Source: Euglena gracilis
Taxonomy: Eukaryota
NCBI GenBank assembly: GCA_039621445.1
Contig: CP154954.1
Span: forward strand, 48,029,847 to 48,093,846
DNA length: 64,000 nt
Reading direction: 5' to 3'
The notes beneath the pieces are model-generated. The model had not been told where the DNA came from. It ran no database searches and saw only the letters and a program-made list of their open reading frames with translations. A program made the translations under genes and the position numbers. Shown here one piece after another: positions 13,496-53,526 of this stretch; position 1 is the stretch's first letter; each line of letters opens with the position of its first letter.

Positions 13496-14722
13496 TACAT
13501 AAAAATCGTCCATGTCACCCGGATACACTGTGTATCCGGGTTCTAAGCGCCGAAGGCGCTTAGAACCCAGGCTCACGGTGTATCCGGGTTACAATGGACG
13601 ATTTTTATATATATCCGTGGACTAAGAGGCCCAAAACACAGACTGTGTTTCATGGAAACGCAAGGTCTACCCCATACGTTTTTCAATTTTTGGTCAAAAT
13701 GGATGTCCCCGAAAACACACCGTGTATCCGGGGACTCTCAGTCCACGAAACACAAGGTGTGTCCAGTCCACGAAAACACACCCTGTGTTTCGTGGACTGA
13801 ATTTTTTAAAAAATTGAACAGAATCATAGAAAATATGTCCCTCTAGTGACTAGAGGGACATATTTTCTATGAAGGCTATTCCTCGCCTTCCAGGACTAGA
13901 GTCTAGTCCTGGAAGGCGAGGAATAGCCTTCAGGCCAAGTTATTGGGGGCACTTTGGGGGGGGGGGCGGCGCCGAAGGCTCCCGGCCCCCTCCCAAAGGC
14001 CCCCACAATGCTTGGCCTGAAGGCATTTTTGGCTTAGAGCATGAAGGTGTGGCGTGGCGACGTTTTACCACATTTCGCTGCATGCCTTGCAGTTTTCTCT
14101 CTCTGAAATGAAGGGGAAAAAACGGCAAACAGTGCGGACCGCTTGCTCCCCCGACCCCTGAAACCTGATGAACTGGTTGCCACATTGCAAAAGAATTCGG
14201 TTGATTTGCAGCAGGGCTTTGCTGTCGACCCAATACACGGTACGCTGTTGGCCACCGCGTTGGAAGCGAAACCAACGGGAACCGCAAAGGCTGAGCGTAC
14301 AGCTGTTGCACGCCTGTTGGATTTCCATCAGGTGTGTACCCATCTGAACACTCAGTATGAGGACCTGGATGGTTGTTTCTTCTGCGTGGGCTGGTTGGGT
14401 CAATGACCCCGTTTATTTGTTTGATGTGGTTGCCCTTGTCAGACAAGCTGAGCAACAGCGCCGAGCACAGTGTGGCACGACGTTCAGTTTCGAGGCAAAC
14501 CTGCCTTCCACTGTCCGGGGCTATTTCAACTCTCTCGCACGGGTGTTCACATCCGTGTGTGTGTGTGTCCAGTCCACAAAAACACACCCTGTGTTTAGTG
14601 GACTGCCAGTCCCAGAAACACAGGGTGTGTTTTCATGGACATGGACTGGACACACACTGTGTTTCGTGGACTCGGTCCACAAAACACAGTGTGTGTTTTG
14701 GGCCTCAGTCCACGGATATATG
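13496..14722 (+). mobile_element. Hairpin-ended element, subfamily A
   Basis: Imperfect ~50 bp-stem hairpin 13499-13608 with GCGCC-GAA-GGCGC apex. IR ATATATCCGTGGACT at ~13609 and 14707-14721. Contains a gene fragment homologous to those in B, D and E. Confidence 0.75.
14119..14552 (+). pseudogene. N-terminal fragment of the putative YR protein (subfamily A), frameshifted
   Basis: KTANSADRLLPRP...VDPIHGTLLA...YEDLDG / WAGW...STVRGYFNSLARVF aligns by eye with the 26822 and 32217 ORFs. Confidence 0.7.
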
Positions 14723-23450: not shown

Positions 23451-26221
23451 AAAAACGTGTTCAGCCCGCCAAATGCCTGCCCTGAAATTCGTGGTCATGA
23501 ACACGTTTTCCATGAGGGCATTTGTGGCAAAGACGCGTTTTCCATTAAACCCCCCCCAAAAATAAGACCCGGGTCTTATTTTTGGGTCCGTTGCTGGAAA
23601 CCTCCAGGGGGGGTCTTATTTTGGGGGGGGTCTTATTTTTGGATTTTTTCTTGACCGACCCGAGCCCGAAAAAAACATCATTTTTCAGGTTCCCAAAAAC
23701 ACTGAAAATTTTCCTTCGGCGCTTCGCGCCACATGTAAATTTGTGTAAGTTGACATTTAGCATGCTTTTTGCACTTAACACAAACGCGCGCTGGTTCTCC
23801 TAAACCCCAATGTCGAGCCTCCCTCGCGAGGATTGCGGGGTTTGTGCCGCGGCGCAGAGGGCAAATGACTGGCAGCCCAGCCTGTGTGTGAAATTTGGGT
23901 TTTTGGCAATTTCTCAGGGAAAATTTTCACTGTCAGGGGGGGACTTATTTATGGGAGGGGGTCTTATTTTTGGATTTTTGCTCGATCGGCCCAGGGGGGG
24001 TCTTATTTTGGGGGGGGGTCTTATTTTTTGGGGGGGTCTTATTTTTGGGGGGGGTTTAGGGCATCTGTGGCAATGACACGTTCTCCATTAAGGCATCTGT
24101 GGCAATGACACGTTTTCCATTAAGGCATCTGTGGCAATGGCACGTTTTCCATTAAGGCATCTGTGGCAATCAAAAAATCGCTGTCATGAAAATTCGGCGA
24201 GAGGTTGAGAGGCCGGGTGGTCCTCTACCCTAGACTAGGTAGGTCTAGACTAGACTAGACTAGACTAGGTAGGTCTAGGGGGGCACTCTACAACACAAGA
24301 AACGGCCAGAGGTTGCCTTTGAGCAATACGACAGGGAGTGTTAGACGTCACGGAAAACGACACGCTTTACACAAAAAAGAGCCATACTTTGGTGGCCGCC
24401 GCAAATCTTGGCAATGAAAATGGTATGCCAAACCGCAGGCGTCACACACCACGCTCCACACGATTTAAATTTTTGGGAATGGCAACACCACAAAAACCAC
24501 ATTTGTCCTGTTTTATAGGCAGTCGGGACACAGCACGAGGTCGGGGGGGGGGGGTTGGCGCTCTGCAAAAGGCAACACAACTCCCTTGGTCGTGGTTTTG
24601 CGGACTGCCCGAGCGACGGCATTCACGTATGTATGAAAAGAGGTTGCCGAACGATTCCCTGAAACAAATATGCTTCCCGACTGCTGCGCACGTTGAGCCA
24701 CACATTGTTCAATGACGCTCGCCTCATTGAACAACAGGCTGGGTTCCAGCTCCCATCCCGTCCAGGCAACAAAGAAATCATCCAGCTCAGGATAAGATGC
24801 TTGCCGATGTTGACACTGTTTGGCGAACTCCAAACAATTGGCAACAGTAGCAAGCTCTGCACCTACGGAGTCAGACTTTTTCTTCGTGTTGCCCTGTGCC
24901 AGCAAGGTGCCATGAAGAGGGTCAACCTTCGACTTCTTGGCATCTTGCTGGTATCCCGCGAGAGCAGCCAGGGGGGGTGTTGGGGACGCGGGGGGGACGT
25001 GGGGGGGGGGACGCGGGGGGGGGCGGGGGCGGGGGCACCACCATTCTGGGTGCTATGCTGGCATTTTTTTTGATTTTTTTTTAAAAAGCAAAAAAAAATG
25101 TTTTTTTTAAAAAGCAAATTGGCAAAAAAGGGTTGTTTTTAAAATGCAGTTTTACAATGCATTACCATCTCCTTGTTCTGCCCAACACACCTTCACACCC
25201 ATCCTATTTCTTCCATTTCTATTTTTTGGGGTACTTGTTCGCTGTATTCATCCCCAAAACCACGACCCCCAAACGGCAGACCCTAACCCTAACCCTAATC
25301 AAGGTTGTCGGCTCTTTTTTTTTGAAACAAAAAACATTTTTTTTAAAAAACATGTTTTTTTAAAAAAAATAAAAAGACGTCATAGAGGGTTTGGATGAAA
25401 GTTTTTTTCTTAAGAAAACAGTGATTTTTCATCTCTGCATCCTTCGAAGTCTGCAAAGGGTGCTGGCTTTCACAACTGCGACACCTTGCCAACCACATCT
25501 TTTTGGGATGAGGATCTGGAAAACTAAAAAACGTCACTTTTGATGACCAAAAAAATGACTTTTGACCTTTTTCCTCAAAAAAATGGCCATTTCGAAGGAA
25601 AAAGCTCAATTTTTGTTTTTTAAAACAAACATGTTTTTTTGTTGTTTTTTTGAAGAAGAAAAAAAACGTCAACCCTGACCCAAACCCTAACCCTAACCCT
25701 AATCTTAACCCAAACCCGATTCCTTAAAGAACAAAAATTGAGGGTTTGGGCTAGGGTTGGGGTTAGGGTAAGGGTTAGGTGGGGGTCGTAGGCGGGGAGC
25801 AAACAAATGTCGTTTTTTGTTGGGCAAGGATAAAATTTTGATTTCTCACTTGTTTTTGCAATGTTCTTTTCCTTTCTCCGCTCTTCATTTCATCACAGCA
25901 AGCATGCCGGGACATTGCAGAAAAGCCTCTTCAAAAAAGGACACCAAGCCACTTGGTGGGGACGCGGGGGGGGACGCGGGGGGGGGATGCGGGGGGGACA
26001 CGGGGGCACAACCCCCAGGAACAGGTCCGTCCTAGGGGGAGGTGGCAAAAGACCATTCACAAAGTTTGCCGTGCGTTTAGCCATAGTGGGAGGGCTGTGA
26101 AAAAAAAAGGGGGGGAAAGGGGGGGGGGTACCACGTTTTCCATCAGGGCATCTGTGGCAATGACACATTTTCCATTAAGGCATCTGTGGCAATGACACGT
26201 TTTCGCCACAATTTGTGTATA
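23451..26221 (-). mobile_element. Hairpin-ended element, subfamily D, copy 1 (hairpin mostly deleted)
   Basis: Begins AAAAACGTGTTCAGCC after host CTT and ends CCACAATTTGTGTATA. Empty site CTT^AAAAGTCGGCG seen at ~12306. 32-bp subterminal repeats. Gene fragment 26084-24348 on minus. Confidence 0.8.
24348..24520 (-). pseudogene. PHD finger at the C-terminus of the element gene (one frameshift)
   Basis: KCGFCG... / CDACGLAYHFHCQDLRRPPKYGSFLCKACRFP* gives the C4HC3 pattern. Confidence 0.8.
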
Positions 26222-26493
26222 AAAAGTCGGCGGTTTTGACCCGTTAGTACATTAGAGTGGGAGTCGGCCGACTAGTCGGCCGACTACCCACTACCCCCCC
26301 CCCCCCGTCTCGCCGACTAGCTACCGACCAATTGGTCAGCCGACCAAGTTGGCCGACTACCCACTACCCCCCCCCCAGTCTACCGTTTGGCACTGCGGTC
26401 GCCCCCCCCCCCGAGATTTTGGGGGAAGATTTTTTTTTTGCCTCATCGTCCTGAAACCACATTTGGTGTTTTCTTGCTTCTTGCTCACAGCCA

Positions 26494-26640
26494 ATGGATG
26501 TATCAGTGCCCAATGCATCTGCCACCTCATCTGGAAGGAAGTTCTTGAGCAGTTGGAAAAGTACATTTCCTTGGCTGATTCACGATGACCACCTTGATGC
26601 AGCATTCTGCTCCATTTGCAAAGGGGCCGTTTCTTTGCAC
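26494..26640 (+). pseudogene. TTF-type zinc finger fragment of a hAT transposase
   Basis: RKFLSSWKSTFPWLIHDDHLDAAFCSIC matches the ZnF_TTF pattern. Confidence 0.7.
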
Positions 26641-26660
26641 CTCCCATTCAGGTCCGATTT

Positions 26661-29600
26661 TGTCATTGCCACAGATGCCCTAATGGAAAACGTGTCATTG
26701 CCACAGATGCCTTAATGGAAAACGTGTCATTGCCACAGATGCCCTCATTGAAAACTTGCCTAACCACAGATGCCTTAATGGAAAACGGCACCCCCCCCCC
26801 TTTTTCCGCAGCCTTCCCACTATGGCTAAACGCACGGCTAACTTTGTGAATGGTCTTTTGCCACCTCCCCCTAGGACGGAACTGTTCCTGGCTGCTCTCG
26901 CGGTATACCAGCAAGATGCCAAGAAGCCGAAGGTTGACCCTCTTCATGGCACCTTGCTGGCACAGGGCAACACAAAGAAAAAGTCCGGCTCCGTGGGAGC
27001 AGAGCTTGCTGCTGTTGCCAACCGTTTGGAGTGCGCCAAACTGTGTCAACATCGGCAAGCCTCTTATCCTGAGCTGGATGCTTTCTTTGTTGCCTGGACG
27101 GGATGGGAGCTGGAACCCAGCCTGTTGTTCGATGAGGCGAGCGTCATTGAACAATGTGTGGCTCAACGTGAGCAGCTGTCGGGAACTTTGTTCGTTTCAG
27201 GGACTCGTTCGGCAACCTCTTTTCAGACATACGTGAATGCCGTCGCTCGGGCATTCCGCAAAACAACGACCGATGCCCTCAAAGTATGGCTCTTTTTCGT
27301 GTAAAGTGTGTCGTGTTCCGTGATGTCTGCCACTCCGTGTTGTTGTGCTCCAAGGCAACCCAGCCTTCTGCCGTGTTGTAGAGTGGCCCCGACCCACCTC
27401 ACTCGTTGAGGACCACCCGGCCTCGCAACCGCCCGCCGATTTTTCATGACAGCGTTTTTTTGCTTTTTACTCAGGGTTGCCACAGATGCCCTAATGGAAA
27501 ACGTGCCTGACCATAGATGCCTTAATGGAAAACGTGTCATTGCCAAAGATGCCCTCATTGAAACCGTGTTTGGGCCGATTTCGAGACTTTGAAAGTCTTA
27601 AATCTTCGCCCAAAACACGGTTTCAAACAAGAACAGTGTTTTGGGCCAAGGTTTTAGGGGGGCCCAGGGGCGACCACGGCGCCTTCGGCGCCGCGGTCCC
27701 CGCCCCTAGGCTCCCCCTAACTCTTGGTCCAAACACAGTTCTTGACGCAGAAAACGTGCCTAACCACAGATGCCTTAATGGAAAACGTGTCATTGCCACA
27801 GATGCCCTCATTAAAACCTATTTTCTGGGCCCGACGCCTGTCTTGAAATTCTACTGACATTAAACGATTTCAGGCTGAAATTGTTTATGTCGGTCGATTT
27901 CCATTCAGGCGCCCGTTTATGAAAGTCGATTTCCATTCAGGCGCCCGTTTATGAAAATCGATTTCCATTCAGGCGCCCGTTTATGACAGTCGATTTCCAT
28001 TCAGGCGCCCGTTTATTGAAAGTCGATTTCCATTCCATTGAAATCTGTTGCTAGTCAGATTGGGAATTTTTAGTGATTTTTTGGACATTTTGTATTTCCA
28101 TTTTTTTCGACATTTTTGGTCCTATGGGGTTGTGGAGGAGTTATGGATCAGACAAAAACCAAATTTTGGGGCCAGGTGATCACAGCTGGCTGAACTTTGG
28201 ATGGAACAGACGGAAGGACGGTGCTTAAGATTATTATTTTCTGGATCTTCAGAAAAAGCATTCGGCATATTTGTCCTGAACCAGTTGTCATCACTGGTCA
28301 TCTAAAAGAAAAGCTTTCGGGTGAGGAGTTATTTGGCAATGTCAACCCTATTTTCTGCGCTCGACGCCTGTATTGCAATTATATTGACATCATCGGATTT
28401 CGGGCCAAGGCTGTGTTCATAGCAAAAGGCTGTGTTCATGGCTTTGGTCAAAATCTGTGTTTGTAATAAAACGCAGACTCTGGCCTGAGTCTCTGTTTCG
28501 AAACGCTGAGTCTGTTATTCGGCCTGAGTCTGCGTTTCGAAACGCAGACTCAGGTCAGAGTCTGCGTTTAAGAAGCAGTTCTTGATATAGAGATTGAAAA
28601 AAAGAAAAAAGCATTCCGAAAAAAAGAGACAAAATGTTGATCGACATTAACAGGTTTCAGGCTGAAACTGAAAATGTCCCAAAACGGAACAAAAAGGCAT
28701 TTCCAAGACATCGGAAACCGTTTAAGCCGGCGTTTGAGACGCCGGGCTCAGGACAGAACCGGCGTCCCCCCCCACGGGCTTCCGGACGCCGGTTCTGTCC
28801 TAAAGCCCGGGGTTAGGAACGCCGGCTTTGTCCAAAGCCCGGCGTCCGGTTTTCATTCCTAAAAATGTCACCAAAAGTGCCCAAAAGTGGCCCTAAGGTG
28901 CTGGTATGAGTGTTTCAACCATCAAGGACAATGAATTTTGCCATCTGGGGACCAGTGGGGTGGATATCCAAATTTGGTGAAAATTGGCCCAGATTTGGAA
29001 ATAGAGTACCGTGCAGCGTGGAAAGATCTGATGAGCACCGCTGGTCGTCTGTTGAAAAGAGCTTTCGATCGAGGGGTAACTTGGTACCCTAACGTTGCAC
29101 GCAGCCCGAGATACGCTCGCGATCGTCGGATCGGCCAGAATCTGAGTCGAAATTTGTCGCAATTTTCAGTGATTTTTGGTTTAAGATGCTTAATAAACCT
29201 TAGAGAAACGTTTTTCCTCTTCGAATCAACGACCTGAGGGCCTTGGAGGGGCACCAGAGTTGTGAAATTAGGATTCCCCACTGACAGAAAATAAGAGCTC
29301 CAGGCGACGTGGCTGAATTTGGTGGTGATCGCCAGTCGTCTGATGAAAAGAGCTTTCGATTGAGGGGTGAGTTTGTACTTGGACGATTGACACAGCCAGA
29401 AATACCCTCGCGATCGCCGGAATTTGGTGAAGTGCAAAGTGGTGTGACATTGCAGATCAGTGGTCGGAGATTGGTCCTGGGAGTGTCCTTTGGCCGAAGG
29501 GTGGGGACGCCGGTTCTGTCCTGAGCCCGGCGTCTCTAAAACGCCGGCTTAAACAAGAGGTCTCGGACGCCGGTTCTGTCCAAAGCCCGGCGTTCCAAAC

Positions 29601-30112
29601 GCCGGTTCCGTCCTTCGGACGGAACCGGCGTTTGGAACGCCGGGCTTTGGACAGAACCGGCGTCCGACACCTCTTTTTTGTAGTAATGTCAGTCAATTTC
29701 CATTCAGGCGCCCGTTTATGACAATCGATTTCCATTCAGGCGCCCGTTTATGAAAGTCGATTTCCATTCAGGCGCCCGTTTATGAAAGTCGATTTCCATT
29801 CAGGCGCCGTTTATGAAAGTCGATTTCCATTCAGGCGCCCGTTAATGGGCCAAAAACCACTTTTTTGACCATATTTTCGTCCAGGCGGTTCGGTCGAATG
29901 AATATCAAGACAAGCGTAGGGCCCAGACAAAATAGGTTTTAGAAAAATCGACCGACACTAACAGATTCAGCAGGGGCGCCGGGCGCGTCGCTTCGCTCGC
30001 TCGCGCCCGGCGCCCCTGCTGAATCTGTTAGTGTCGGTCGATTTTTGTATAGAAAACGTGTTCATGACCACGAATTTCAGGGCAGGCATTTGGCGGGCTG
30101 AACACGTTTTTT
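26661..30112 (+). mobile_element. Subfamily D, copy 3 (hairpin end missing), contains element C
   Basis: Gene fragment 26822-27272 (MAKRTANFVNGLLPPPP...) followed by PHD tail KYGSFSCKVCRVP*. Plain end GGCTGAACACGTTTTT at 30112. Confidence 0.8.
27813..30051 (-). mobile_element. Hairpin-ended element, subfamily C
   Basis: IR AAAACCTATTTTCTGGGCCC at 27813 and ~29905-29941. Perfect ~45 bp-stem hairpin 29943-30046 followed by GTATA. Removal restores the host repeat CTCATT^GAAAACGTG. 32-bp tandem repeats near both ends. Confidence 0.8.
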
Positions 30113-32904
30113 AAGAAAAAAGTAAAAAAATCAAAAAAAACAAAAGGAAAAATTCATTGAAAAAACTCGTTATGAAACTCCCAAACCATACTTTGAATCC
30201 TACTAAGTTCAAAAACTGCCAAAAATGGTCAAACATTCAAAAATGCAACAAAAATAGAATTTTATGACTTTTTTTCATTTTTGTGGAAGGAAGTTTTTGG
30301 CAGAAATTACCCAGAAGTTCAATGTGTTTCCATCCATTTTGAGTCAAATTTACCGAATCAAATTTTGAGGGGGGGGGGCTTAAATTTCCGAAAAGGGGGG
30401 GGGGGTAATGCGGTTGATTGGAGGTCGGCCTGACCTCCAATGGTCGATAAGCCACAGCCAACGGTCGGCCCGACCTAGGTCGGCCCGACCATGGTCGGTA
30501 CGACCTCCGGGATCGTCATAGCCAATCATCTGCACGGAGCCCCAGAAGTTGCCAAAAATCATTGAGAATGTGCATTCAAAATTTTTTTCATACAAACCCC
30601 AGTGGGCGTTTTTTTTGTTTTTGTTAAAAAAACAATGTTAGAATTAAAAAAAAACAAAAAAAACAACGGCAAAAAAAACAGGCCGGCCCACTATGAAGTG
30701 GCCCTCCGGGGTCCGGCCAAGGTCCGGCCGGAACATGGATAAAAATTTTTGCACCATGCCCCCCCCCCCAGTTACCCCCACCCCTCCTCAAAGTGACCCC
30801 CCTTAGAGTGGCCAAAATTTTTTTGGCAAATTTGGTAACCCCACCCTCAAAGTGGCCACTTTCTTTTGGCGCCGAAGGCACCGAGGCCCAAAAATTGACC
30901 CCCCCCCCAAAGTGTCCCCTCCCCCAGAGTGGCCGTTTTGGGTTCCCGTGGTGCCACTTTGAGGGGGGGGGTGAGGGTAGTCACCCCCCCCCTTATTGGT
31001 CACCTTTGGGCCCCAGGCAAAAACAATTTTTTCGAAGGGAAATATTTTTCTTTGAAAAAGGGCCGATTTGGGCCGTCAGAATTTTTTTGCTGGTTGCCAT
31101 CCATGAAAAGTGCCCTGGAATGCCCAAAAACAACCTTGAAACCCCCAAGACTTGGGGCAGGGGGCAAAAGTTGGGCATAAATTGCCCCCCCCCCCCCAAG
31201 TACCCCCCTGTTAGTCACCCTTGGCCAAATTCACCTCCCAAGGGGGTGACTAACTGGGGGGGGGGGGCACGGTAAGTTAAATGGTCATAAAACACCTGAT
31301 TTTTTCCGAAAAAAATTTGACCTGATGGGAAAAAGGGTGTAGATCACAAATTTCACACAAAAATTCCCCCCCAAAAATGGTGGGGGTGCTATCGAAATTT
31401 TGTTTTCCGACCCCCCCCCCTAAGTGACCCCCCCCAAGTGGCCCTCTGGGGCAGGGGTGTAGAAGTAATTTTTTCTCGGGGGGGCGAGATCCTTGACAAA
31501 TGCCTAATGTAACCATTGTTTTTTTTTTCGCCGCCCACAGGACGGCAAGACGGCAGTGCTTTTTTGAAAGATGGCATTGAATGTGACAAAAAAATGTGGT
31601 AATTTCTGTCATGGCACAATCCACCACAATTTCGACTTTCAAGCCGCTCAACGGGCAGCAAGAGACGATGATGCCTTTCGTGGGGGTGGTTTGGGGGGAA
31701 CACCACATTTTTGGTGGCAACATTAGGAATCACCGAGCTGGAATTTTGGGGGGAAAATTCACAAATTAGGAATCCCCACACCTGAAATTAGGATTTTGAC
31801 ACCAAATTATAATCACCAAGCCCAAATTTGAAAAATTTACGCCTCAAAATCAAGAATCTGCCTGAGAATTTTATCAAATTAGGAATCACCGGCCAAAATC
31901 TTTCCCCACAAAATTTCGTCAAAAAGGGTCCTTGTTCGAGGCACGGGGGGGAGGGGGTCACGGGGGAACACCCCTGTGTTTTGGGATTTCTATACACAAA
32001 TTGTGGCTGAGCCCAGATTTCAGCCTGAAAACGTGTTCAGCCAGGGGGCCCCCGAAGGGGGCCCCCTGAACACGTTTTCAGGCTGAAATCTGGGCTCAGC
32101 CACAATTTGTTTGAAAACGTGCCGAACCACAGTTGCCTTAATTGAAAACGTGTCATTGCCACAGATGCCCTCATTGAAAACGTGTCACCCCCACCTTTTT
32201 CCGCAGCCCTCCCACTATGGCGAAACGCACGGCTAACTTTTTTTATTTATCTGGTATTTGTCTTTTACCACCTCCCCCTAGGACGGAACTGTTCCTGGCT
32301 GCTCTCGCGGTATACCAGCAAGATGCCAAGAAGCCGAAGGTTGACCCTCTTCATGGCACCTTGCTGGCACAGGGCAACACAAAGAAAAAGTCCGGCTCCG
32401 TGGGAGCAGAGCTTGCTGCTGTTGCCAACTGTTTGGAGTGCGCCAAACTGTGTCAACATCGGCAAGCATCTTATCCTGAGCTGGATGCTTTCTTTGTTGC
32501 CTGGACGGGATGGGAGCTGGAACCCAGCCTGTTGTTCGATGAGGCGAGCGTCATTGAACAATGTGTGGCTCAACGTGAGCAGCTGTCGGGAACTTTGTTC
32601 GTTTCAGGGAATCGTTCGGCAACCTCTTTTCAGACATACGTGAATGCCGTCGCTCGGGCATTCCGCAAAACAACGACCGAGGGAGTGGTGTTGCCTTCCT
32701 CAGAGAGAAAATCAGGACCTGACCGATGTTCCGTCTGTGTTTCCCACCGCCGAGCAACGTTCCGCTCCTGCGGTCAGCAGCTCCGTTCCCTCCCGTGACC
32801 AACCCCCTGTCCCTCGTGCTGTGTCCCGACTGCCTATAAAACAGGAGAAATGTGGTTTTTGTGGTGTTCCCATTCCCAAAAATCCAAATTGTGTGGAGCT
32901 GAAC

Positions 32905-34330
32905 TATATAAAAATTGTGGGCATAACCCGTATTCAGGCCGTATAACGGGTCAAGGGCGCCGCAGGCGCCCTTGACCCGTTATACGGCCTGAATACGGGT
33001 TATAGCCCACAATTTTTCTGTAACCGTGAATAGAAAAGGCCCGGCGCCTGCCCTGTTTTTCGTGGGTGTGCTTCACGCCAGGTTTTTCGGGCATTTTTTT
33101 GTCATTTTTCACCCAAAAATCCTATTCACAAAAATATGCCCTGTTTTTCGTGAATATCTATTCACAAAAAACAGGGCATATTTTCGTGAATTGAAAATAT
33201 GCCCTGTTTTTTGTGAATAGAAACAGGTCTGTAGAAATGGTGTCCAAATGACCCGAATCATACCCACATGGCACCGCTGGTCCTGGAAAACGAGAAATGG
33301 GCGTTGGGCCAAGTAATTGGGGGGCACTTTGGGGGGGGGGACTGGGCGCCGAAGGCGCACGGTCCCCCCCCCCCCCACAATGCTTGGCCTGACGCCGATA
33401 TTCTCTTTAGAGCCTAACGGATCACAGAGGGTCGGTATTTTATCCACATTGCTTGTGTTGTTCCTCAGTCTGTTCTTGCAAAAATGGCGAAGAAAGCCGC
33501 AAACACCATGGACCGAATGTTGCCACAACCCACAAAACGGTGTATTGGGGCTCTGGCTTCACGCCCGAACCGGCGTCCAATGCTGGTCCATTGGATGCCG
33601 GTTCATTGGTCCATTTTGCGTCCAGGGGACCCAAAATGAAAAGTGCCAAAAAGTGTCCAAATGGGTTTTAGACATGTGGCAACCATATAATCATATCTGA
33701 GCAGTTTTTGGGGGTATTTGGTCAGAAATTGGGGGATTTTCTGTAACACTTTACATTTGGTCAAATTTGGCGAATTTCTGAAATGGAGTACCATGCAGCA
33801 CGGCTGAAATCTAAGGCCATCTGCTGAAAGCCCTCGAGAAGGGCTATCGATCAAGGGGCAACATGGCAGGTGAACAGTGGGTTTTGGAATTTGCGAAAAG
33901 GGTCGGAACATTGCGATTGGCAATTTTTAGGGCGCTGTGCAGTGTGGCTGAGTTCTGAGGGTACCAAACGAAAGCTCATGGGGAAAGCTTTCAATTGATA
34001 TGCTGTATGGCACCTCAGGTGTGGGATTTCACAAATTAGGATGTCAAAATTTGGAATACACGATCGCTGAAAATAAGCGCTGTGTGCAGTATTGCTGATT
34101 CCTGTGGCCATCTGTAAAAAGCCCTTGAGAAGAGCTTTCGATTGATGGGATTGACAGGTTTTTGGGTTTCATTTCAGTTAAAATTCCTATTCACGAAAAT
34201 ATGCCCTGTTTTTCGTGAATAGGTATTCACGAAAAACAGGGCACATTTTCGTGAATTGAAAATATGCCCTGTTTTTCGTGTTCACACCCACGAAAAACAG
34301 GGCAGGCGCCGGGCCTCTATTCACGGTTAC
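32905..34330 (+). mobile_element. Hairpin-ended element, subfamily B, copy 1
   Basis: TATATA, hairpin 32910-33017, IR GTAACCGTGAATAG. Gene start MAKKAANTMDRMLPQP at 33484. Exact removal restores the host PHD reading frame. Confidence 0.85.
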
Positions 34331-34629
34331 AAAGTTGTGTGTGACGCCTGCGGTTTGGCATATCATTTTCGTCGGGGGCACTCTACAACACGACAGAAGG
34401 CTAGGTTGCCTTGGAGCACAACGACACGGAGTGGCGGACATCACGGAACACGACACGCTTTACACAAAAAAGAGCCATACTTTGGTGGCCGCCGCAAATC
34501 TTGGCTCACTCGTTGAGGACCACCCGGCCTCGCAACCACCCGCCGATTTTTCATGACAGCGTTTTTTGCTTTTTACTCAGGGTTGCCACAGGTGCCCTAA
34601 TGGAAAACGTGCCTGAACACAGATGCCTT

Positions 34630-34721
34630 TATATCAAGAACTGCGTCTTAAACGCAGACTCTGACCTGAGTCTGCGTTTCGAAACGCAGACTCAGGCCGA
34701 ATCTCAGGCAGACTCAGCCTT
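34630..34721 (+). mobile_element. Miniature hairpin-end element, subfamily F (second fragment 28466-28589)
   Basis: TATATCAAGAACTGCG with palindrome centred on GCGTTTCGAAACGC. Removal restores GATGCCTT^AAT. Confidence 0.6.
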
Positions 34722-37700
34722 AATCGAAAACGTGTCATTGCCACAGATGCCCTCATTGAAAACGTGCCTAACCACAGATGCCTTAACGTGACCCCCCCCT
34801 ATTTGTCACCCCCCCCCTAATAGTCGCCCCCCCCCTTGGGGGGGGCGACAATTAGGGGGGGGGTTACCCATGGACCCATGGAAATGTGGGGTGAATTGAG
34901 TAACCCCCCCCCTAATTGTCACCCCCCCCTAATAGTCGCCAGGGGGGTCAAAACGGTCCCAGGGGGGTGCCATATAGGGGGGGTCACGTTAATTGAAAAC
35001 GTGTCTGCCACAGATGCCCTCATTGAAAACGTGTTCATGACCACGAATTTCAGGGCAGGCATTTGGCGGGCTGAACACGTTTTTAAACAGAGGGATTTCA
35101 AAAAGAGTGCAAAATATGGAAAAAGAGACAGTACCCGCCCCCCAAGGTTCGGCAAATTTCGAAATTTTGGGAATTTTTCATCTCAATTGAAAAATTCGAA
35201 AAATTCGAATTTTTCGAAAATTTCAAAAATCGCGGAACGCGAATCTGGGTACCACCCCCCCCCTTTATTTGAGCACACCCACGGGCCAACGGACCCCCCA
35301 AATGCTCAAATAAGGGGGGGGGGGTCAAATAAGGGGGGGGGGCCAAAAATTCCTTTAGAAAAAGGGCAAAAAAAAATTTCGGCGCCTTCGGCGCATATGA
35401 AAAAAAATTTTCCCCGGACCCAAATGCTCAATTAAGGGGGGGGGTCAAATAAAGGGGGGGGGTATTCCTAATTCATCAGAATTATTGGTGCTCAGTGGAA
35501 AAGACTTGCATTTTGTGGACTCTGCAGACAACTCTAAGATGCCAGCCGGATGCAGGAGCATATGGTGAATTTGCCAATTCTTTCAGTGAATGTACATTTT
35601 CGTTTGTATTACGGCCAACAACGTGTGTGTTTTCTGGTTCCTGTTGCTGTTCCTGTTTGCTTTTCAATGGCAAAGAACTGGCCAGTTTTGGGCCAGATGT
35701 GGTGGCCAGTTTTCGGCCACATGTGCTGGCCAGTTTTGGGCAGAAGTGCTGGCCAGTTTTGGGCCACATGATGGCCAGTTTCGGCTTCCAATTTTGTCTA
35801 GCTTCAATTCCCCCCCACCCCTGGTACGGGGTGGGGTGGCCTGGGGGGGGGGGCTTCTGCGGGTGGGGGGGTCTGGGGGAGGGGGTTGGTTTTTTGTCCA
35901 TTTTATCCAGGGTTTCTGGGAGTGGTTCACCCCCTCCTCCCCTCCCCAGTCCCCCCCCGCTCCCCCCCCCCCTCGCCCCCTCCCCACGGCCCTGCCCAGT
36001 GTCTTGCCCTGTCCGCCCTTCCGCAGTCGTCCTCCTCTTCTTCTACCAGCCTCCCTAACGCCCGAACCACGCAGCCCCGCGCACTCCGCGTCCGACTCCT
36101 ATTCCCCCTGGGCACCCCCACTCCCGGCCCGAGCGTATTCCTGCTCTCACCCGCACCCGTCCCCCCCCCCCCTTTTCCTTTTTTTTTTTTTCCTTATAAT
36201 TTTTGGGGGCTTCTGCAGGTGGGGTGGTCTGGGGGAGGGGGTTGGTTTTTTGTCCATTTTATCCCGAGGGTTCTGCGGAGTGGGGGTGGACTTTTGCAAC
36301 TGTGGGGCCATGACTGGGGGGGGGGGGCGGCAAAAAAAATCCCCCGTTGGAGTCACGAGCGGGATTTTCCGCAAAAGGCAGGCAAAATTTATCTGAAGTA
36401 CTTCTCGAGAAGGTGCTTTTTCTGTCTGCGAGTACCTTGGAAATGCCGTCACCGTGGGAAGGACTGTAGCCAGCGGAAGAAAAACAGGTCCCCCTTGCAG
36501 TGCTTCACCCTGCGGAAATTTTGGAAATTTTCCTCACAAAAAATTCGAATAATTCAACTTTGAAAAATTCGAATTATTCGAAACGGAAAAAAACGCCGAA
36601 CCTTGCCGCAGCTATTTTGCATGTAACAAAAAAAGCGTACTGCCATCCGAAGGGCGGCAGGACGGTAATGCATTTTCCCCAAAAGCTTCCCAAAAAAGTG
36701 CCAAATTTGCAGAACTGGTGTGCTGTTCAAATAATTGAATTTAGAGGCCAAGTCAAGATTCCTGTTGCCGCCCGAAGGAGATCAGGCAGTAGACTTTGGT
36801 CATTTTGACCCCCCTCCCCCCCCCTATGGTGAAGTTCACCGTTTGAAAGTTCACCGGGGGGTCCCGGACCCCCTCCCCCCCTCTGCCTAACCCATCGGTG
36901 AACTTCACCGGTGAAGTTCACCAAGAGAGCACTTTTTTGGCCAAAAATGGCCAAAAAATGGCATTTGGGCAAGTTTTCGGAAATTTCGATAAAATTCCAT
37001 GAAGCATCAACCTCAAAATGACCATTTTGAGAGGAAAGGAGCAAAATTTTACCCATGAAAATTTCACCCCCAACCATCAAAACGGTGAAGTTCACCGGTG
37101 AACTTCACCGGTGAACTTCGCCGCCGAAAGTCCCCCCCCCCCCCCCCCCATATTGTCCCACCGACCTCTCCCCAGGAGGCCCGCCGGGACAATATGGGGG
37201 GGGGGACAATATGGGGGTACCAAAGGAAATTTCATTGACCGAGCCAAAAAAACCCCTCGTCGGCCGGGCCGAGGGACAATATGGGGGGGGGGACAATATG
37301 GGGGGGGGGGTGGTAAGCCCCCCCCCCCTCCCCCCCCCCGGTGAATGTTCACCGGTGAACTTCACCGGGGGGGTCCACAGCCCCCCCCCACCCCTGCCTA
37401 ACCTCCGAAGGGCGGCGAGACGGTACCATGCCCCCCCCCCCCATATAAGACCCCCCCCCATATAAGACCCCCCCCTGGCCGGCCGAAGGCCGGCCCTTTG
37501 GCCGGGACCAACCCCCCCACCCCCCCCCATATAAGACCCCCCCCCTGGGATTTTGGCTCCCAAGGGGGGGTCTTATATGGGGGGGGGGCATGGTAGTGGT
37601 GATACTCACAAACAATAGCCCCAAATTGAAAAAAGGAAGATTTTCGCTCCCTCCGACCCATGAGTTTTGGACTTGTTTGGCCGCCCGAAGGGCGGCGAGA

Positions 37701-38190: not shown

Positions 38191-38577
38191 GAGGGCCTCT
38201 GTGCAGGGCGGGATTGAGGTTGAGGATTTCAAAAAAAGTTCAACCTCAATGTCAACGACCTCAACCTCAACCTCAACCTCAATGTTACCTCAATGCCCAA
38301 AATTCAAAAAAAAAGAACTCACAAAAAGCATGGATTGGACCATCTCCTCTTCTAAACCCTTCCTCAAAGGCAATTTTGACGCTTTTATGACAATTTACAA
38401 CATATGTGGGTGGAAACAAGAAAAAATAGTGGGGTGCCAGGGATGGAATTTAAACATCCCGGAAGAGTTTGATACGTTTAAAACGTTTTAAACTAGATTT
38501 AAACAGTTTAGAACGATTCAGATCGCGAAATGGACGTCATTCCTAACTCGTATGGCTGTTCTTATCCTTTTACAGCA

Positions 38578-39885
38578 TGCGACCTGCTACAACTGCTGCC
38601 GTCGCCGCACCTACAGTTCACGTTGCTCAGGCAATGTCTCGATGCGTGTAAAGTGAACGACCTGCTTCGAACCACACACCTCTCGGGAGCCAAGGCACCA
38701 TGCCATTCCTTCGCCACTCTCCTTCGGGACACGATGTCCGTCATCACCGCTCGACCACTGGATGAAAAACAGTGGGCACAAGCCTCTCTGCCAGTCCGCC
38801 TGGGGGGGCTTGGGATTCGAGACCCAGAGGTATCTAGAACACCGGCAAGGTGGGCGGCCATCCTTGACTTCCTCGCACGAGCGGACAGCACCCTGTGCCT
38901 ACCTGAGGGTTGCCCCCAGCTGCCACGGGACTACGGAGAGACCGGCTTGGTGATCTCAGGCCTCACGAAAGGGGTGGCGCCGGTGGGTGACCTCCTAACG
39001 GACCCCAGCAAAGTGAGTTCCTTGTCTCCCACGATGTTGAAACAAAAATGGTGGACAGATGAGGTCGTCAAGGTCCGGGCAGACCTGCTTTTGGCTGGCC
39101 TTGCTGGAAATGACGCGGTCCGTTTCGCATGCCAGCGAAGGCCGCACGCCATGGCATGGGCAGCGGTAAATCCCTCTGCTCCCCTGAAAACCCTCATCCC
39201 ACCGGCTGAATTCAGAGCCCTGACGCAGTGGTCCTTGGGGTGCCAAGTCTGCCCCACAACGACAGATGGCTCCTTGCCGGAATGCCCCCGCTGCCACCAA
39301 CAAATGGATGTTGCAGGGAATCACCTTGTCTGCTGCCCCAAAAACAACACTTTGCGGCGACATGGTGCCCTCCAAACGTTCGTTTTGGAACTTGCGAGAA
39401 AGGCCGGATTCATGGCTCGACGGGAAGAGGTGGCCGACAATCGGACGAGGCCTGGAGATGTCTTCATCACGCGATTCGACGCGGACGGACCTGCAGCAGT
39501 GGATGTCACGGTCCGCCACCCGCTGCAACCAGCAAACCCAGTCTCCTCAATGGACGCCTTGGCACGGTGGCACGACTTGCAAGAGGGAGACAAAGAACGC
39601 AAGTACGCAGCTACCTGCCAGCGGCTGGGATGGACGTTCATCCCGTTTGTGGTGGACTGCTTCGGAGGGATGGGGGAGCGAGCGGCAGGATTCATATCCA
39701 AGTGCCTTCGCACTGTGTTGGCACAGACTGATGTTCCTCAAAGGCGATCGTCGGAGGCTACGGTATGGCAAGCACTGAGTCTAACGTTGGCAAGAGAAGT
39801 GGCTCGCCAGCTGGCTTGGGGGGCAGTGGCGGAGCCATCAGGCGATGTGGATCCCTCAACCCACACCCCATACGCCACGGAATAA
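38578..39885 (+). CDS. RT thumb region, CCHC zinc knuckle and restriction-like endonuclease (C-terminal part only)
   Basis: QASLPVRLGGLGIR; CPRC...HLVCC; RRH; RPGD...VDVTV; K..KY; FIPFVVDCFGG. These are typical CRE/RLE-clade motifs. Frame is open. Confidence 0.9.
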   Translation, partial: CDLLQLLPSPHLQFTLLRQCLDACKVNDLLRTTHLSGAKAPCHSFATLLRDTMSVITARPLDEKQWAQASLPVRLGGLGIRDPEVSRTPARWAAILDFLARADSTLCLPEGCPQLPRDYGETGLVISGLTKGVAPVGDLLTDPSKVSSLSPTMLKQKWWTDEVVKVRADLLLAGLAGNDAVRFACQRRPHAMAWAAVNPSAPLKTLIPPAEFRALTQWSLGCQVCPTTTDGSLPECPRCHQQMDVAGNHLVCCPKNNTLRRHGALQTFVLELARKAGFMARREEVADNRTRPGDVFITRFDADGPAAVDVTVRHPLQPANPVSSMDALARWHDLQEGDKERKYAATCQRLGWTFIPFVVDCFGGMGERAAGFISKCLRTVLAQTDVPQRRSSEATVWQALSLTLAREVARQLAWGAVAEPSGDVDPSTHTPYATE

Positions 39886-43331: not shown

Positions 43332-47776
<4,445 letters not shown>

Positions 47777-52111: not shown

Positions 52112-52940
52112 ATGTGGGAGCACACAATTGGGGGTTCCTGTGTTCCAGGAATTTTTGTTTGTGGACTGGCTTTGAAACATTTTCTTGTTTCCCCTGCAAA
52201 TTTTTCATCGTTCCGATCCGAACGACAACTAATTTACGGCCATCTTCGTGAGTGGACAACTGAAAGTTGCCCACCCGAAGGTCCAAGAGGGAATCTGGAC
52301 GAACACCCAATTGAAAGGCCATGAGCAGTAAATTCATCCTCTGGGATTCATACCAACTCTTCCAATTTGTTTGGGTAAAAAGTTGTGCCACCTTGGGTCG
52401 GTCAAAACCGCCACAGACTCCTTCCGTGCCATGAAATTGCGGGACCATGTGCAAGCAGCGTTGAAAAAGAGCACAAAATTTGGAAACTGTTTGCTTGCAA
52501 TGGGGACAATGCCATGTTCGGGACGCGTAGTCTTGTACGCCGAAGCCAATGCGTTGACTGTTGTTCTTAAGGTTGTGGGGCTCCATTCCCGAACAGCAAC
52601 ACCACTGGCTCGACAAATTTCCTTCCTCTGTTGTAGGGCTGATTGACACCGTCCACTTTCCAAAGGCAGTGAACCACTCATCCAAATTCGGCAAAATGAT
52701 CTGCCTGTGGTCCAACACCTTTGCAAAGTCCAACGCGGCGAGAATTGCCATTTTTCGGTTTCTCTCTGTTCCTGGAGGAGGACGAGCCACTTTGGAAAAA
52801 GTGTCCCCAAATAGGGCGGTGTCTGCTGGCAAATCTTCGAAAGGAGTGTATGCTTTTTTCAAAGCTTCTAAAAATTCAGGTACAGGTGGCAAGGGTCCAA
52901 AGCCTGCCTCAGCCACGTTCACCAACTGTGCGGCCATCAT
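52112..52940 (-). CDS. Tyrosine recombinase-like (Crypton-type) protein, C-terminally truncated
   Basis: LLLMAFQLGVRPDSLLDLRVGNF (box I Arg, codon 52299-52301), GTMKN (catalytic Lys position) and RNPQLCAP. The HxxR...Y half is absent. Confidence 0.7.
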
Positions 52941-53526
52941 CGTGATTGGCTGTGTGTGTGTGTGAGAGATAATATAACAAAAATTCCGCTGTCAAAGCCG
53001 CAGACTCCGTCCTGAGTCCCTGCGCCTCTAATACGCAGACTTAAAAAAAACTGCGTCTTAAGACGCAGACTCCGTCCTGAGTCCTGCGTCTAAGACGCAG
53101 GACTCAGGACGGAGTCTGCGTCTAAGACGCAGTTTTTGCTATAAAGGGGGGGGGTCAAATAAAGGGTGAGCTAAGATTGGTTCACCCTTGCGATCAAAGG
53201 CAAAAATTTGGACCATCATTTTCCCCTTTGTTTTTTTTGCCGGTTTTTTTGCCCGTTTTTTTTTAATAAAAAACAAAAAACTTTTTGTTAAAAAAACCAA
53301 AAAACGCCAGCTATGAGACGCACACAGACGCACACAGACGCACACAGACGCACACAGACGCACACAGACGCACACAGACGCACACAGACGCACACAGACG
53401 CACACAGACGCACACAGACGCACACAGACGCACACAGACGCACACAGACGCACAACGACGCACACGGACGCACACGGACGCACACGGACACACACAGACG
53501 CACACAGACACACACAGACACACACA

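What the first reader, a model, noticed from the sequence alone, without database searches (positions are those of the whole stretch)
24348..34370. The element protein ends in a PHD finger, visible only after reassembling broken copies
Seen: deleting B1 exactly (32905-34330) joins KCGFCGVPIPKNPNCVELN to KVVCDACGLAYHF in frame. Copy D1 supplies HFHCQDLRRPPKYGSFLCKACRFP* (24348-24445, minus) and D3 has KYGSFSCKVCRVP*. Together this is a complete C4HC3 motif. Known: PHD fingers read histone H3 tails, as in RAG2. Inference: a chromatin-guided YR transposase, which could explain the clustering of copies here. The YR and PHD parts come from different subfamilies and are linked only through the shared N-terminal domain.
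Basis: partly seen in the sequence, partly recalled or inferred. Interest (0 to 1): 0.8.

Follow-up and report, generated by a model that had tools for sequence, protein, structure and literature searches.

The report
Recombinase transposon ending in a PHD finger
The broken repeat copies are deletion remnants of a mobile element whose tyrosine recombinase carries a chromatin-reader-type PHD zinc finger at its end, a domain combination I could not find described in the papers searched.

Summary
Removing 32905-34330 joins the two PHD pieces in frame. Other genomic copies of the same organism have exactly this empty site and the un-inverted tail. D1 supplies the remaining part, giving C-x2-C-x17-C-x2-C-x4-H-x2-C-x13-C-x2-C.

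The three D copies are internally deleted, non-coding derivatives. Their N-domain and PHD lie in different frames because the deletion junction (32705/32707) is out of frame.

A HMMER search found a family with 209 representatives. P0151 (707 aa) and P0169 (565 aa) are uninterrupted ORFs: N-domain, recombinase domain, long disordered linker, C-terminal PHD. D's linker motif and PHD align to them.

A model of P0151 matches Cre over both recombinase domains (Z 18.5) and solved PHD fingers (Z 5.6-7.3). Arg, Lys, Arg and Tyr are conserved; both catalytic histidines are not.

This is a Crypton-like element with a PHD finger, which five literature searches did not find described. Histone reading, chromatin-guided insertion and the explanation for clustering remain untested.

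The parts
32111..32187 (+). D2 5' array of a 32-nt direct repeat (2.4 units)
   Evidence: Tandem Repeats Finder. The same unit brackets all three D copies.
32217..32705 (+). D2 N-domain coding remnant (starts MAKRTANF...). It is the core-binding-type domain of the recombinase and is cut after ...VVLPSSE.
   Evidence: Family HMM (A1) gives E 7.8e-44 on 32217-32708. 38% identity to P0001/P0002.
32705..32707 (+). Internal deletion junction of the D2 type. It is out of frame, and the N-domain frame runs into a stop at 32796-32798.
   Evidence: Loose ends behind 32705 (10 and 9 records) and before 32707 (4 records) continue with other sequence in the respective frames. ORF frames.
32707..32904 (+). 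D2 linker tail (ENQDLTDVPSVFP...) and PHD N-part. The first Cys pair starts at 32851.
   Evidence: Aligns to P0022 427-504 and P0040 270-351.
32905..34330 (.). B1, a composite insertion. It consists of a hairpin repeat (32905-33018) and an element with terminal inverted repeats (33019-34330).
   Evidence: Sequence. The empty site occurs in 9/15/1/1 contigs of other copies.
34331..34370 (+). D2 PHD middle part (KVVCDACGLAYHF)
34371..34505 (-). D2 inverted segment holding the PHD C-part (QDLRRPPKYGSFLCKACRVP, stop at 34441-34443) and the 3' untranslated part
   Evidence: blastn against D1 and Dmid. The un-inverted form appears as an 'opposite strands' joint 34370->34505 in 9/8/2/1 contigs. Junction losses.
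34506..34790 (+). D2 3' tail with 32-nt repeat units, interrupted by a short hairpin repeat (about 34633-34716)
   Evidence: blastn
24119..24972 (-). D1 main body. It holds the N-domain (24549-24974), a D1-type deletion junction, and the PHD at 24351-24501 with one frameshift near 24453. The stop is at 24348-24350 and the 3' 32-nt array is at 24056-24170.
26015..26217 (-). Detached 5' end of D1 (32-nt array 26132-26204, start of ORF KRTANFVNGLLPPPP), separated from the body by about 1 kb of inserted sequence
26661..27569 (+). Middle D copy.
52119..52943 (-). Diverged family copy with the N-domain and the first two thirds of the recombinase domain. It is frameshifted and cut by a hairpin repeat, and has no PHD.
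   Evidence: Family HMM E 1.6e-56, profile positions 2-289 of 454..
14119..14596 (+). Another N-domain-only remnant of the family (different subfamily)
   Evidence: Family HMM E 1.3e-19 and 2.2e-15. tblastn.

Best explanation
The three D copies (24.1-26.2 kb minus, 26.7-27.6 kb plus, 32.1-34.8 kb plus) are internally deleted, non-autonomous and now non-coding derivatives of a Crypton-like DNA transposon.

The parent element carries one long gene between two arrays of a 32-nt direct repeat. Its protein has four parts:
1. A Cre-type N-terminal core-binding domain.
2. A tyrosine-recombinase catalytic domain.
3. A disordered linker of about 130-260 residues with two short conserved motifs.
4. A C-terminal PHD finger.

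D keeps the first ~165 codons and the last ~100 codons because it keeps both element ends. The deletion is not a multiple of three, so D cannot make a fusion protein. D must be moved, if at all, by full-length copies.

Shown: the motif, the empty B1 site, the un-inverted form, the homology of D's two ends to single-ORF natural proteins, and the folds.

Inferred:
- The recombinase cuts and rejoins DNA through the conserved Arg-Lys-Arg-Tyr set, probably at or near the 32-nt repeats.
- The PHD finger tethers the enzyme to chromatin (an H3 tail) or to a host partner, and so biases where it acts.
For: Motif and joins.

Evidence from other copies in the same organism:
- The B1 empty site occurs in 9, 15, 1 and 1 contigs of the four runs.
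- The un-inverted joint occurs in 9, 8, 2 and 1 contigs.
- Behind 32705, 10 and 9 records continue, in the N-domain frame, as RQFPHFNE(C/L)F. Relatives have KQFPQFNDF and KQFPHFCAC at this position.
- Before 32707, 4 records read CAPPSEEHSV in the PHD frame. This continues the family motif A-P-P-x-x-x-A-L-V-N-Q-D-L-S-D-V-P.

Family:
- phmmer with P0002 found 209 representatives at E<=1e-3, 114 at E<=1e-10.
- Single ORFs from MAK... to the PHD: P0151 (707 aa) and P0169 (565 aa, Pfam PF00628 precomputed).
- Recombinase plus PHD in one ORF also in P0022, P0040, P0065, P0153, P0171 and P0172.
- Of the 7 proteins with at least 180 residues after the recombinase end, 6 carry the PHD.
- P0032, P0034, P0058 and P0101 are natural deletion forms that join N-domain or recombinase pieces directly to a PHD tail, as D does.

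PHD identity:
- Pfam PHD scores 30.2 bits (P0040) and 29.7 bits (P0065) against a cut-off of 24.
- Nearly all of the 50 PDB sequence matches of P0040 are named PHD fingers or PHD-containing chromatin proteins, such as TAF3, ATXR5, Jade and PHF21A.

D to family:
- D2 read across the two joints gives blastp E 7e-14 to P0022 and 7e-12 to P0040.
- D1's PHD gives E 1.5e-12 against my HMM.

Folds, from the AlphaFold2 model of P0151 (pLDDT >90 over residues 1-410, 70-90 over the PHD):
- Foldseek: Cre E 1.1e-7, TM 0.65.
- VIA: Cre Z 18.5 over 296 residues, XerA 17.3, XerH 17.2.
- VIA on residues 645-707: solved PHD fingers at Z 7.3-5.6, rmsd about 2-3 A.

Conserved columns: Arg 65 of 67, Lys 59 of 62, Arg-Arg 53 and 52 of 56, Tyr 47 of 49.

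All three D copies are bracketed by direct arrays of the same 32-nt unit.
Against: - No full-length D-subfamily copy of this organism was seen. The long form rests on loose ends of at most 30 letters from short contigs laid at 85% likeness.
- Both catalytic histidines of classical tyrosine recombinases are absent. Lys (46 of 57) and Asp sit near His I, and Val (43 of 53) sits at His II. Activity is therefore not assured.
- No Pfam recombinase family is hit.
- Many relatives end 15-50 residues after the recombinase domain with no PHD, for example P0004, P0161 and P0167 at 439-445 aa. The PHD therefore marks only part of the family, or those gene calls are cut.
- P0151's own PHD scores only 17.1 bits in Pfam, and P0153 has no Pfam match at E<=0.01.
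- The exact element termini, target site and any duplication were not determined.
- By recall, the tryptophan that forms the H3K4me3 cage in TAF3/BPTF-type PHDs is Ala, Pro or Val here (W only in P0065). A methyl-lysine reading mode is not indicated.
Confidence: 0.8

Rival explanations
1. The PHD is a captured host exon or a chimera specific to D. On this view the real element protein has no PHD.
For: - In this window the PHD is found only in D copies, out of frame with the N-domain.
- The only copy here with a recombinase domain (52119-52943) has no PHD.
- Many relatives lack a PHD.
Against: - At least eight natural proteins from other sources have the recombinase domain and PHD in one ORF, two of them complete.
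- D's linker motif and PHD are homologous to theirs.
- The sequence before 32707 in longer copies continues the family's conserved motif in the PHD frame.
Confidence: 0.03
2. The family is a domesticated, catalytically dead recombinase-derived chromatin protein, comparable to DUF3504/ZMYM/QRICH1 or Ndc10. On this view the D copies are pseudogenes of a host gene family rather than transposon derivatives.
For: - Both catalytic histidines are missing.
- The model also matches QRICH1 (Z 9.7) and Ndc10 (Z 9.0 and 7.5).
- A PHD finger is typical of chromatin proteins.
Against: - Arg, Lys, Arg-Arg and Tyr are kept in 93-97% of sequences across a family at 25-45% identity.
- Very many copies and many different deletion variants exist in one genome.
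- Copies keep both ends with repeat arrays.
- Deletion derivatives recur in other sources.
- Copies are interrupted and rearranged like other repeats here.
Confidence: 0.07
3. The element is the recombinase gene of a DIRS/Ngaro-type retrotransposon, not a Crypton-like DNA transposon.
For: - Tyrosine recombinases of eukaryotic elements also occur in DIRS-like retroelements.
- The N-domain resembles an ALOG domain (Z 6.0). By recall, ALOG domains derive from DIRS-type recombinases.
- The nearest Atlas cluster with taxa combines ALOG and Phage_integrase.
Against: - D keeps the start of the ORF about 30 nt behind the 5' array.
- D keeps the stop of the same ORF about 130 nt (Dmid) to 180 nt (D1) before the 3' array.
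- In relatives these two ends belong to one ORF, which leaves no room for other genes.
- P0151's ORF fills 2121 of 2374 bases of its contig.
- No reverse-transcriptase signal lies next to any copy in the window.
Confidence: 0.05
4. The architecture is as in the best explanation, but the PHD does not read histone tails. It binds a host protein (as Pygo's PHD binds BCL9/Legless), binds DNA, or only stabilises the C-terminus. Insertion is then not chromatin-guided.
For: - Among the best structural matches is the Pygo PHD in complex with a partner protein (Z 6.8).
- The cage tryptophan position is not conserved (recall).
- The long linker carries two conserved short motifs that look like partner-binding sites.
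Against: - The best structural and sequence matches include PHDs solved with H3 peptides: ORC1b, ATXR5, BPTF and TAF3.
- 29% identity to ORC1b, BPTF and ATXR5 over 52-55 residues.
Confidence: 0.4

Closest known systems
Crypton DNA transposons (Goodwin 2003; Kojima & Jurka 2011, PMC3212892, passages read)
   Same: - A single gene encoding a tyrosine recombinase.
- No reverse transcriptase seen.
- No long terminal inverted repeats.
- Non-autonomous derivatives that keep the 5' and 3' ends are reported for CryptonI and CryptonA.
- Extra C-terminal domains differ between groups: GCR1_C in CryptonF, and a conserved but unnamed C-terminal region in CryptonS.
   Different: - A C-terminal PHD finger. 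The word PHD occurs 0 times in that paper.
- His I and His II of the catalytic set are not conserved.
- 32-nt direct repeat arrays at both ends.
- Very high copy number, whereas Cryptons are described there as mostly low-copy.
- The relation to the named groups could not be tested (no Repbase). Whether the CryptonS C-terminal region is a PHD is unknown to me.
Cre / Xer / lambda-integrase tyrosine recombinases
   Same: - Two-domain fold: Cre Z 18.5 over 296 residues, XerH 17.2, Tn1549 integrase 15.1.
- Conserved Arg, Lys, Arg and Tyr.
   Different: - 12-16% identity.
- No Pfam hit.
- Both histidines replaced.
- About 300 extra C-terminal residues with a PHD finger.
Chromatin-reader modules in other transposon proteins. 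Examples: the chromodomain of chromovirus (Ty3/Gypsy) integrases and the RAG2 PHD (both recalled); the PHD in Gypsy-7a_cRei (PMC9940879, figure legend); the PHD in CR1-like elements (Kapitonov & Jurka 2003, seen only as a reference).
   Same: A small histone-reader-type domain is fused to, or works with, the enzyme that inserts the element. This is the likely logic of tethering to chromatin.
   Different: In those cases the enzyme is a DDE integrase/transposase or a reverse transcriptase with endonuclease.
Crypton-derived host proteins (DUF3504 in ZMYM/QRICH1, Ndc10/Cbf2)
   Same: - Recombinase-derived fold: QRICH1 Z 9.7, Ndc10 Z 9.0.
- Loss of catalytic histidines.
   Different: - Arg, Lys, Arg and Tyr are retained.
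- Multicopy, with deletion derivatives.
- No DUF3504 Pfam match.

Membership tests
PHD finger (Pfam PF00628) | Cys4-His-Cys3 ligand pattern with PHD spacing | tested here: met
   The pattern C-x2-C-x17-C-x2-C-x4-H-x2-C-x13-C-x2-C comes from D2 (32851-32904 plus 34331-34369) together with D1 (24351-24452). D1 has all eight ligands on one stretch of DNA, with one frameshift.
PHD finger (Pfam PF00628) | Score above Pfam's gathering cut-off (24 bits) | tested here: inconclusive
   Only the unbroken C-half of the window's own copy could be scanned: 22.9 bits, E 9e-5. Homologues give mixed results. P0040 scores 30.2 and P0065 scores 29.7 (both met). P0022 scores 23.2 and P0151 scores 17.1 (both below).
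PHD finger (Pfam PF00628) | Cross-braced two-zinc PHD fold | tested here: met
   Tested on the homologue P0151, not on D. Model residues 645-707 match ORC1b PHD (Z 7.3, rmsd 2.6, 52 aligned), Pygo (6.8), BPTF (6.7, rmsd 2.1) and ATXR5 (6.6). In all, 17 of the 50 listed rows cover model residues 639-707; 16 of them are named PHD fingers.
PHD finger (Pfam PF00628) | Aromatic residue two positions before the last Cys pair (feature recalled) | tested here: met
   D has F (GSFLCKAC). In the family column, W occurs in 5 of 10 and Y in 1 of 10.
PHD finger (Pfam PF00628) | Binding of a histone H3 tail | not testable with these tools
   No assay was possible. By recall, the cage Trp of H3K4me3 readers is Ala in D, Pro in P0040, Val in P0151 and Trp only in P0065.
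Tyrosine recombinase superfamily | Core-binding domain plus catalytic domain fold | tested here: met
   Tested on the P0151 model. Foldseek gives Cre E 1.1e-7, TM 0.65, 392 columns. VIA gives Cre Z 18.5, XerA 17.3 and XerH 17.2. D's N-domain is homologous to residues ~1-165.
Tyrosine recombinase superfamily | Catalytic Arg I, Lys, Arg II and nucleophile Tyr | tested here: met
   Arg 65 of 67, Lys 59 of 62, Arg-Arg 53 and 52 of 56, Tyr 47 of 49 in alignment A1. The D copies themselves have lost this part.
Tyrosine recombinase superfamily | Catalytic His I (H-x-x-R) and His/Trp II | tested here: not met
   Lys (46 of 57) and Asp (47 of 57) precede the Arg pair. Val (43 of 53) sits where His II is expected, and the next column is His in only 14 of 50.
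Tyrosine recombinase superfamily | Match to Pfam Phage_integrase (PF00589) or DUF3504 (PF12012) | tested here: not met
   No such hit for P0001, P0002 or 27 other members at E<=0.01 to 1. A neighbouring Atlas cluster has PF00589 on 18% of its members.
Crypton transposons | The recombinase is the only gene, with no reverse transcriptase | tested here: inconclusive
   D keeps the ORF start and ORF stop next to the two repeat arrays, and relatives have both in one ORF. P0151's ORF fills 2121 of 2374 bases of its contig. No full-length genomic copy was seen.
Crypton transposons | No long terminal repeats; a short direct repeat at the termini that matches the target | tested here: inconclusive
   Direct arrays of a 32-nt unit lie at both ends of all three D copies. 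No inverted termini were found. Exact ends and target were not determined.
Crypton transposons | Phylogenetic placement with CryptonF/S/A/I recombinases | not tested

The most novel reading that the evidence does not exclude
This is a clade of eukaryotic tyrosine-recombinase transposons that has fused a histone-reading PHD finger to the recombinase. Site-specific recombination would then be steered by a chromatin mark: an unmodified or specifically marked H3 tail chooses the neighbourhood, and the 32-nt repeats choose the site.

It could be a natural template for chromatin-state-targeted recombinases. It could also explain how the family reached very high copy number in this genome.
Probability: 0.3. 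Interest if true: 0.75.

Novelty: new variant of a known kind. Interest (0 to 1): 0.6.

Why it matters
Tyrosine-recombinase transposons (Cryptons) are the least understood class of eukaryotic DNA transposons. Almost nothing is known about how they choose targets.

A family in which the recombinase carries a chromatin-reader-type domain gives a concrete, testable hypothesis for target choice.

The family also has an unusual catalytic set, Arg-Lys-Arg-Tyr without either histidine, which bears on what a eukaryotic tyrosine recombinase minimally needs.

In practical terms, intact natural ORFs (P0151, P0169) now exist as starting points for biochemistry.

Tried and rejected
- Whole-genome search: none is held for this window, so no full-length D copy could be fetched.
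The genomic context of P0171 (a 3-Mb contig) and of the other relatives therefore stayed out of reach.
- Intron or programmed frameshift as the reason for the frame change between N-domain and PHD: rejected. The junction coincides with a deletion breakpoint where other copies continue differently. The RNA-labelled runs show the same joints as the DNA runs, with no extra splice-like joint.
- Pfam on the N-domain, on D2's linker plus first PHD half, and on the 52-kb copy gave nothing meaningful.
- PDB sequence search with the family profile gave only weak helix-turn-helix matches at E 0.16-0.65. The fold searches superseded these.
- Taxon of host and relatives: 20 clusters were looked up. Names were only 'hypothetical protein', plus one record filed under the plant Genlisea aurea. 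I suspect that record is a contaminant; this was not tested. The Atlas gave no taxon for the nearest clusters. A 457-aa ORF at 38512-39882 resembles retroelement-like clusters from mixed eukaryotes and gives no host clue.
- Expression: the D-like contigs in X15 (RNA only by guess) and in X20 (a leaf-litter metatranscriptome, small share of words) cannot show transcription, because DNA may be present. No habitat or expression claim is made.
- The search of earlier findings returned nothing for this genome.
- A Pfam call on four other window ORFs failed on a reference containing stop codons and was not repeated.
- Supplements of the papers were not opened. Additional file 1 of PMC3212892, which holds the Crypton sequences, might show whether CryptonS ends in a PHD.

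Full report
**What is in the window**

The window is eukaryotic and repeat-rich, and no genome is held for it. blastn of the region against the window finds three copies of one repeat, 'D'.

- D1 lies on the minus strand at 24119-24972. Its detached 5' end is at 26015-26217.
- A middle copy lies on the plus strand at 26661-27569.
- D2 lies on the plus strand at 32111-34790.

Each copy is bracketed on both sides by direct arrays of the same 32-nt unit (2.3-4.0 units where Tandem Repeats Finder called them; D2's 3' units were seen by blastn only). About 30 nt behind the 5' array an ORF starts with MAKRTANF. A stop codon lies about 130 nt (middle copy) to 180 nt (D1) before the 3' array.

**The observation**

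In D2, the stretch 32851-32904 encodes KCGFCGVPIPKNPNCVELN. After 1426 nt of foreign sequence (32905-34330), the stretch 34331-34369 encodes KVVCDACGLAYHF in the same frame. The foreign sequence is a hairpin repeat followed by an element with terminal inverted repeats.

D1 reads VVCDACGLAYHFHCQDLRRPPKYGSFLCKACRFP and then a stop (24348-24452, minus strand). The middle copy keeps PSKYGSFSCKVCRVP and a stop. Together this gives C-x2-C-x17-C-x2-C-x4-H-x2-C-x13-C-x2-C.

The D1 half alone scores Pfam PHD 22.9 bits (E 9e-5, cut-off 24) and PHD_2 22.4 bits.

The join is natural. I laid Logan contigs of two DNA runs (X1, X2), one possible RNA run (X15) and one metatranscriptome (X20) on 32100-34700 at 85% likeness.

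- 9, 15, 1 and 1 contigs skip 32902->34329. With 2 ambiguous bases this is the exact empty site.
- 9, 8, 2 and 1 contigs join 34370 to 34505 on the opposite strand. This is the un-inverted order seen in D1 and the middle copy.

D2 is therefore a copy that suffered an insertion and a local 135-nt inversion, with small losses at both junctions.

In both D1 and D2 the N-terminal domain and the PHD are in different frames. This is not an intron or a programmed shift. The frame change sits at a deletion breakpoint (32705/32707).

At that point other copies in the same genome continue differently.

- Behind 32705, 10 (X1) and 9 (X2) records go on, in the N-domain frame, as RQFPHFNE(C/L)F.
- Before 32707, 4 records (X2) read CAPPSEEHSV in the PHD frame.

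The first peptide matches what relatives have right after this point: KQFPQFNDF in P0001 and KQFPHFCAC in P0002. The second extends the conserved family motif ...A-P-P-x-x-x-A-L-V-N-Q-D-L-S-D-V-P-x-P-F that precedes the PHD in relatives. D2 itself keeps ENQDLTDVPSVFP.

D1 has a different junction, which one X2 contig also shows (32705->32812 with 8 letters between). Many other deletion variants exist. D is thus a heterogeneous set of internally deleted derivatives of a longer element.

**The longer element exists as one ORF elsewhere**

The D N-domain finds P0001 (38% identity), which ends in the first recombinase box. P0001 finds P0002 (491 aa).

phmmer with P0002 against 1.84 billion representatives gives 209 proteins at E<=1e-3, with the best 150 listed.

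- A C4HC3 pattern is present at the C-terminus of 3 of these 150: P0022, P0040 and P0065.
- Pfam PHD scores are 23.2, 30.2 and 29.7 bits respectively (cut-off 24). P0065 also passes PHD-1st_NSD at 27.5 against 27.
- P0151 (707 aa), a member of the P0040 cluster, is a complete ORF. It runs from MAKQVKNLL... through the N-domain, the recombinase domain and a ~250-residue linker to a C-terminal PHD. Its own Pfam PHD score is only 17.1 bits.
- A profile search added P0169 (565 aa, complete, PF00628 precomputed). It also added P0171 (479 aa, on a 3.0-Mb contig) and P0172 (519 aa), both with recombinase end plus PHD.

Of the 168 proteins then held, 7 have at least 180 residues after the recombinase end, and 6 of these carry the PHD. 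P0117 does not. I dropped two spurious second hits, P0022 at residue 64 and P0044 at residue 16.

Proteins with shorter tails cannot tell. Several 439-445-aa proteins do end 15-47 residues after the recombinase domain, so a PHD-less form probably exists too.

Four further proteins (P0032, P0034, P0058, P0101) join N-domain or recombinase pieces directly to a PHD tail. They are natural deletion derivatives like D.

D2 read across its two joints aligns to P0022 427-504 (35% identity, E 7e-14) and to P0040 270-351 (38% identity, E 7e-12). The database held 150 sequences. D1's PHD scores E 1.5e-12 against my HMM of three family PHDs.

**Folds**

I built an AlphaFold2 model of P0151 with an 86-sequence alignment. 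It is confident over residues 1-410 (pLDDT >90), disordered over 415-645, and has pLDDT 70-90 over the PHD.

- Foldseek: Cre (E 1.1e-7, TM 0.65, 392 columns), then XerH, Tn1549 integrase, XerA and IntI.
- VIA-align against 48,161 chains: Cre Z 18.5 (296 residues, model 25-405), XerA 17.3, XerH 17.2, lambda Int 13.7, type IB topoisomerases 10-12, Flp 10.0, QRICH1 9.7, Ndc10 9.0.
- For residues 645-707: ORC1b PHD 7.3, Pygo 6.8, BPTF 6.7, ATXR5 6.6 and further PHD fingers down to 5.6.

Column counts in the alignment are Arg 65 of 67, Lys 59 of 62, Arg-Arg 53 and 52 of 56, and Tyr 47 of 49. The two catalytic histidines are replaced: Lys 46 of 57 and Asp 47 of 57 before the Arg pair, and Val 43 of 53 at His II. 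No Pfam recombinase model is hit.

**How it most likely works**

Shown:
- A single-ORF element protein with core-binding domain, recombinase domain, disordered linker and PHD.
- D keeps only the two ends.

Inferred:
- Full-length copies supply the recombinase in trans. D is mobilised because it keeps the terminal 32-nt arrays.
- The recombinase uses Arg-Lys-Arg-Tyr chemistry.
- The PHD, on a long flexible linker, tethers the enzyme to nucleosomes or to a host partner.

By recall, the cage tryptophan of H3K4me3 readers is not conserved here. If histone is read, an unmodified-H3 mode (as in ORC1b, ATXR5 or PHF21A, which are among the matches) is more likely than a trimethyl-lysine mode. None of this was tested.

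The clustering argument is weak. About 25,000 contigs per DNA run were laid on this 2.6-kb stretch, B1 included. The window holds other family remnants as well, at 14119-14596 and 52119-52943. Local density may simply reflect abundance.

**Comparison with what is known**

The element works like a Crypton: one recombinase gene, no reverse transcriptase seen, no inverted termini, and non-autonomous deletion derivatives. Membership in a named Crypton group could not be tested.

- Kojima & Jurka 2011 (PMC3212892; passages read) describe GCR1_C in CryptonF, an unnamed conserved C-terminal region in CryptonS, and none in animal Cryptons. 'PHD' occurs 0 times in that paper.
- Five full-text searches found no paper describing a tyrosine-recombinase element with a PHD. 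I also read passages of PMC9977147, PMC13465315, PMC9940879 and one preprint.
- PMC9977147 lists PHD only in a figure key next to other element types.
- PHD fingers are reported in Gypsy-7a_cRei (PMC9940879, figure legend).
- PHD fingers are also reported in CR1-like elements (Kapitonov & Jurka 2003, seen only as a citation).
- These searches cover only the open-access library, and supplements were not opened.

**Verdict**

The architectural inference is supported by independent natural ORFs and folds. The chromatin-guidance function is plausible but untested. I rate this a new variant of a known kind, with interest 0.6.

Noticed in passing
window 18740-18990 (+): A second, degenerate PHD-like remnant: CIVCERPLRT, a stop, then PPNVVRCLRCGISFHSGC. 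A possible last Cys pair (LVCGFRC) lies in another frame. It scores E 0.006 against my family PHD HMM. It may be the 3' end of another family copy.
   Followed up: partly
window 24453 (D1) versus 32904/34331 (D2): D1's PHD frameshift is an 8-nt gap that straddles exactly the point where B1 is inserted in D2. Other copies show variant joints at the same point (32903->34331; 32904->34340 with 5-6 letters between). This could be an excision footprint of a B1-like element, a hotspot, or coincidence.
   Followed up: partly
window 34371-34505: A 135-nt inversion lies inside D2, with a few bases lost at both junctions and no obvious inverted repeats at the break points. The mechanism is unknown.
   Followed up: partly
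window 25671-25779: Head-to-head interstitial telomere-like arrays, (AACCCT) x7.8 and (AGGGTT) x6.5, lie inside the ~1-kb sequence that splits D1 from its 5' end.
   Followed up: no
window 32905-34330: B1 is composite. It is a 114-nt perfect-hairpin repeat abutting a ~1.3-kb element with ~50-nt terminal inverted repeats. Both parts are very abundant in the organism's runs.
   Followed up: no
window 43274-47800: A ~4.5-kb CA-rich satellite with a 10-nt period and strong strand asymmetry (GC skew -0.34, AT skew up to 0.97).
   Followed up: no
window 38512-39882 (+): A 457-aa open frame resembles unnamed eukaryotic clusters. One neighbouring cluster has RVT_1 on 15% of its members, so this is probably the tail of a non-LTR retrotransposon protein.
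   Followed up: partly
proteins P0022, P0065, P0117, P0131, P0151; also P0008: The disordered linker holds a second conserved short motif, an acidic W-D...PLTQ(L/P)SE, upstream of the NQDLSDVP motif. In P0008 it lies before the N-domain instead. These are possibly partner-binding motifs.
   Followed up: no
window 28469-28592, 34627-34716, 52000-52090, 53050-53150: A short hairpin repeat (units around ...CGTTTCGAAACGCAGACTC...) recurs. It interrupts both D2's 3' array and the 52-kb recombinase copy.
   Followed up: no
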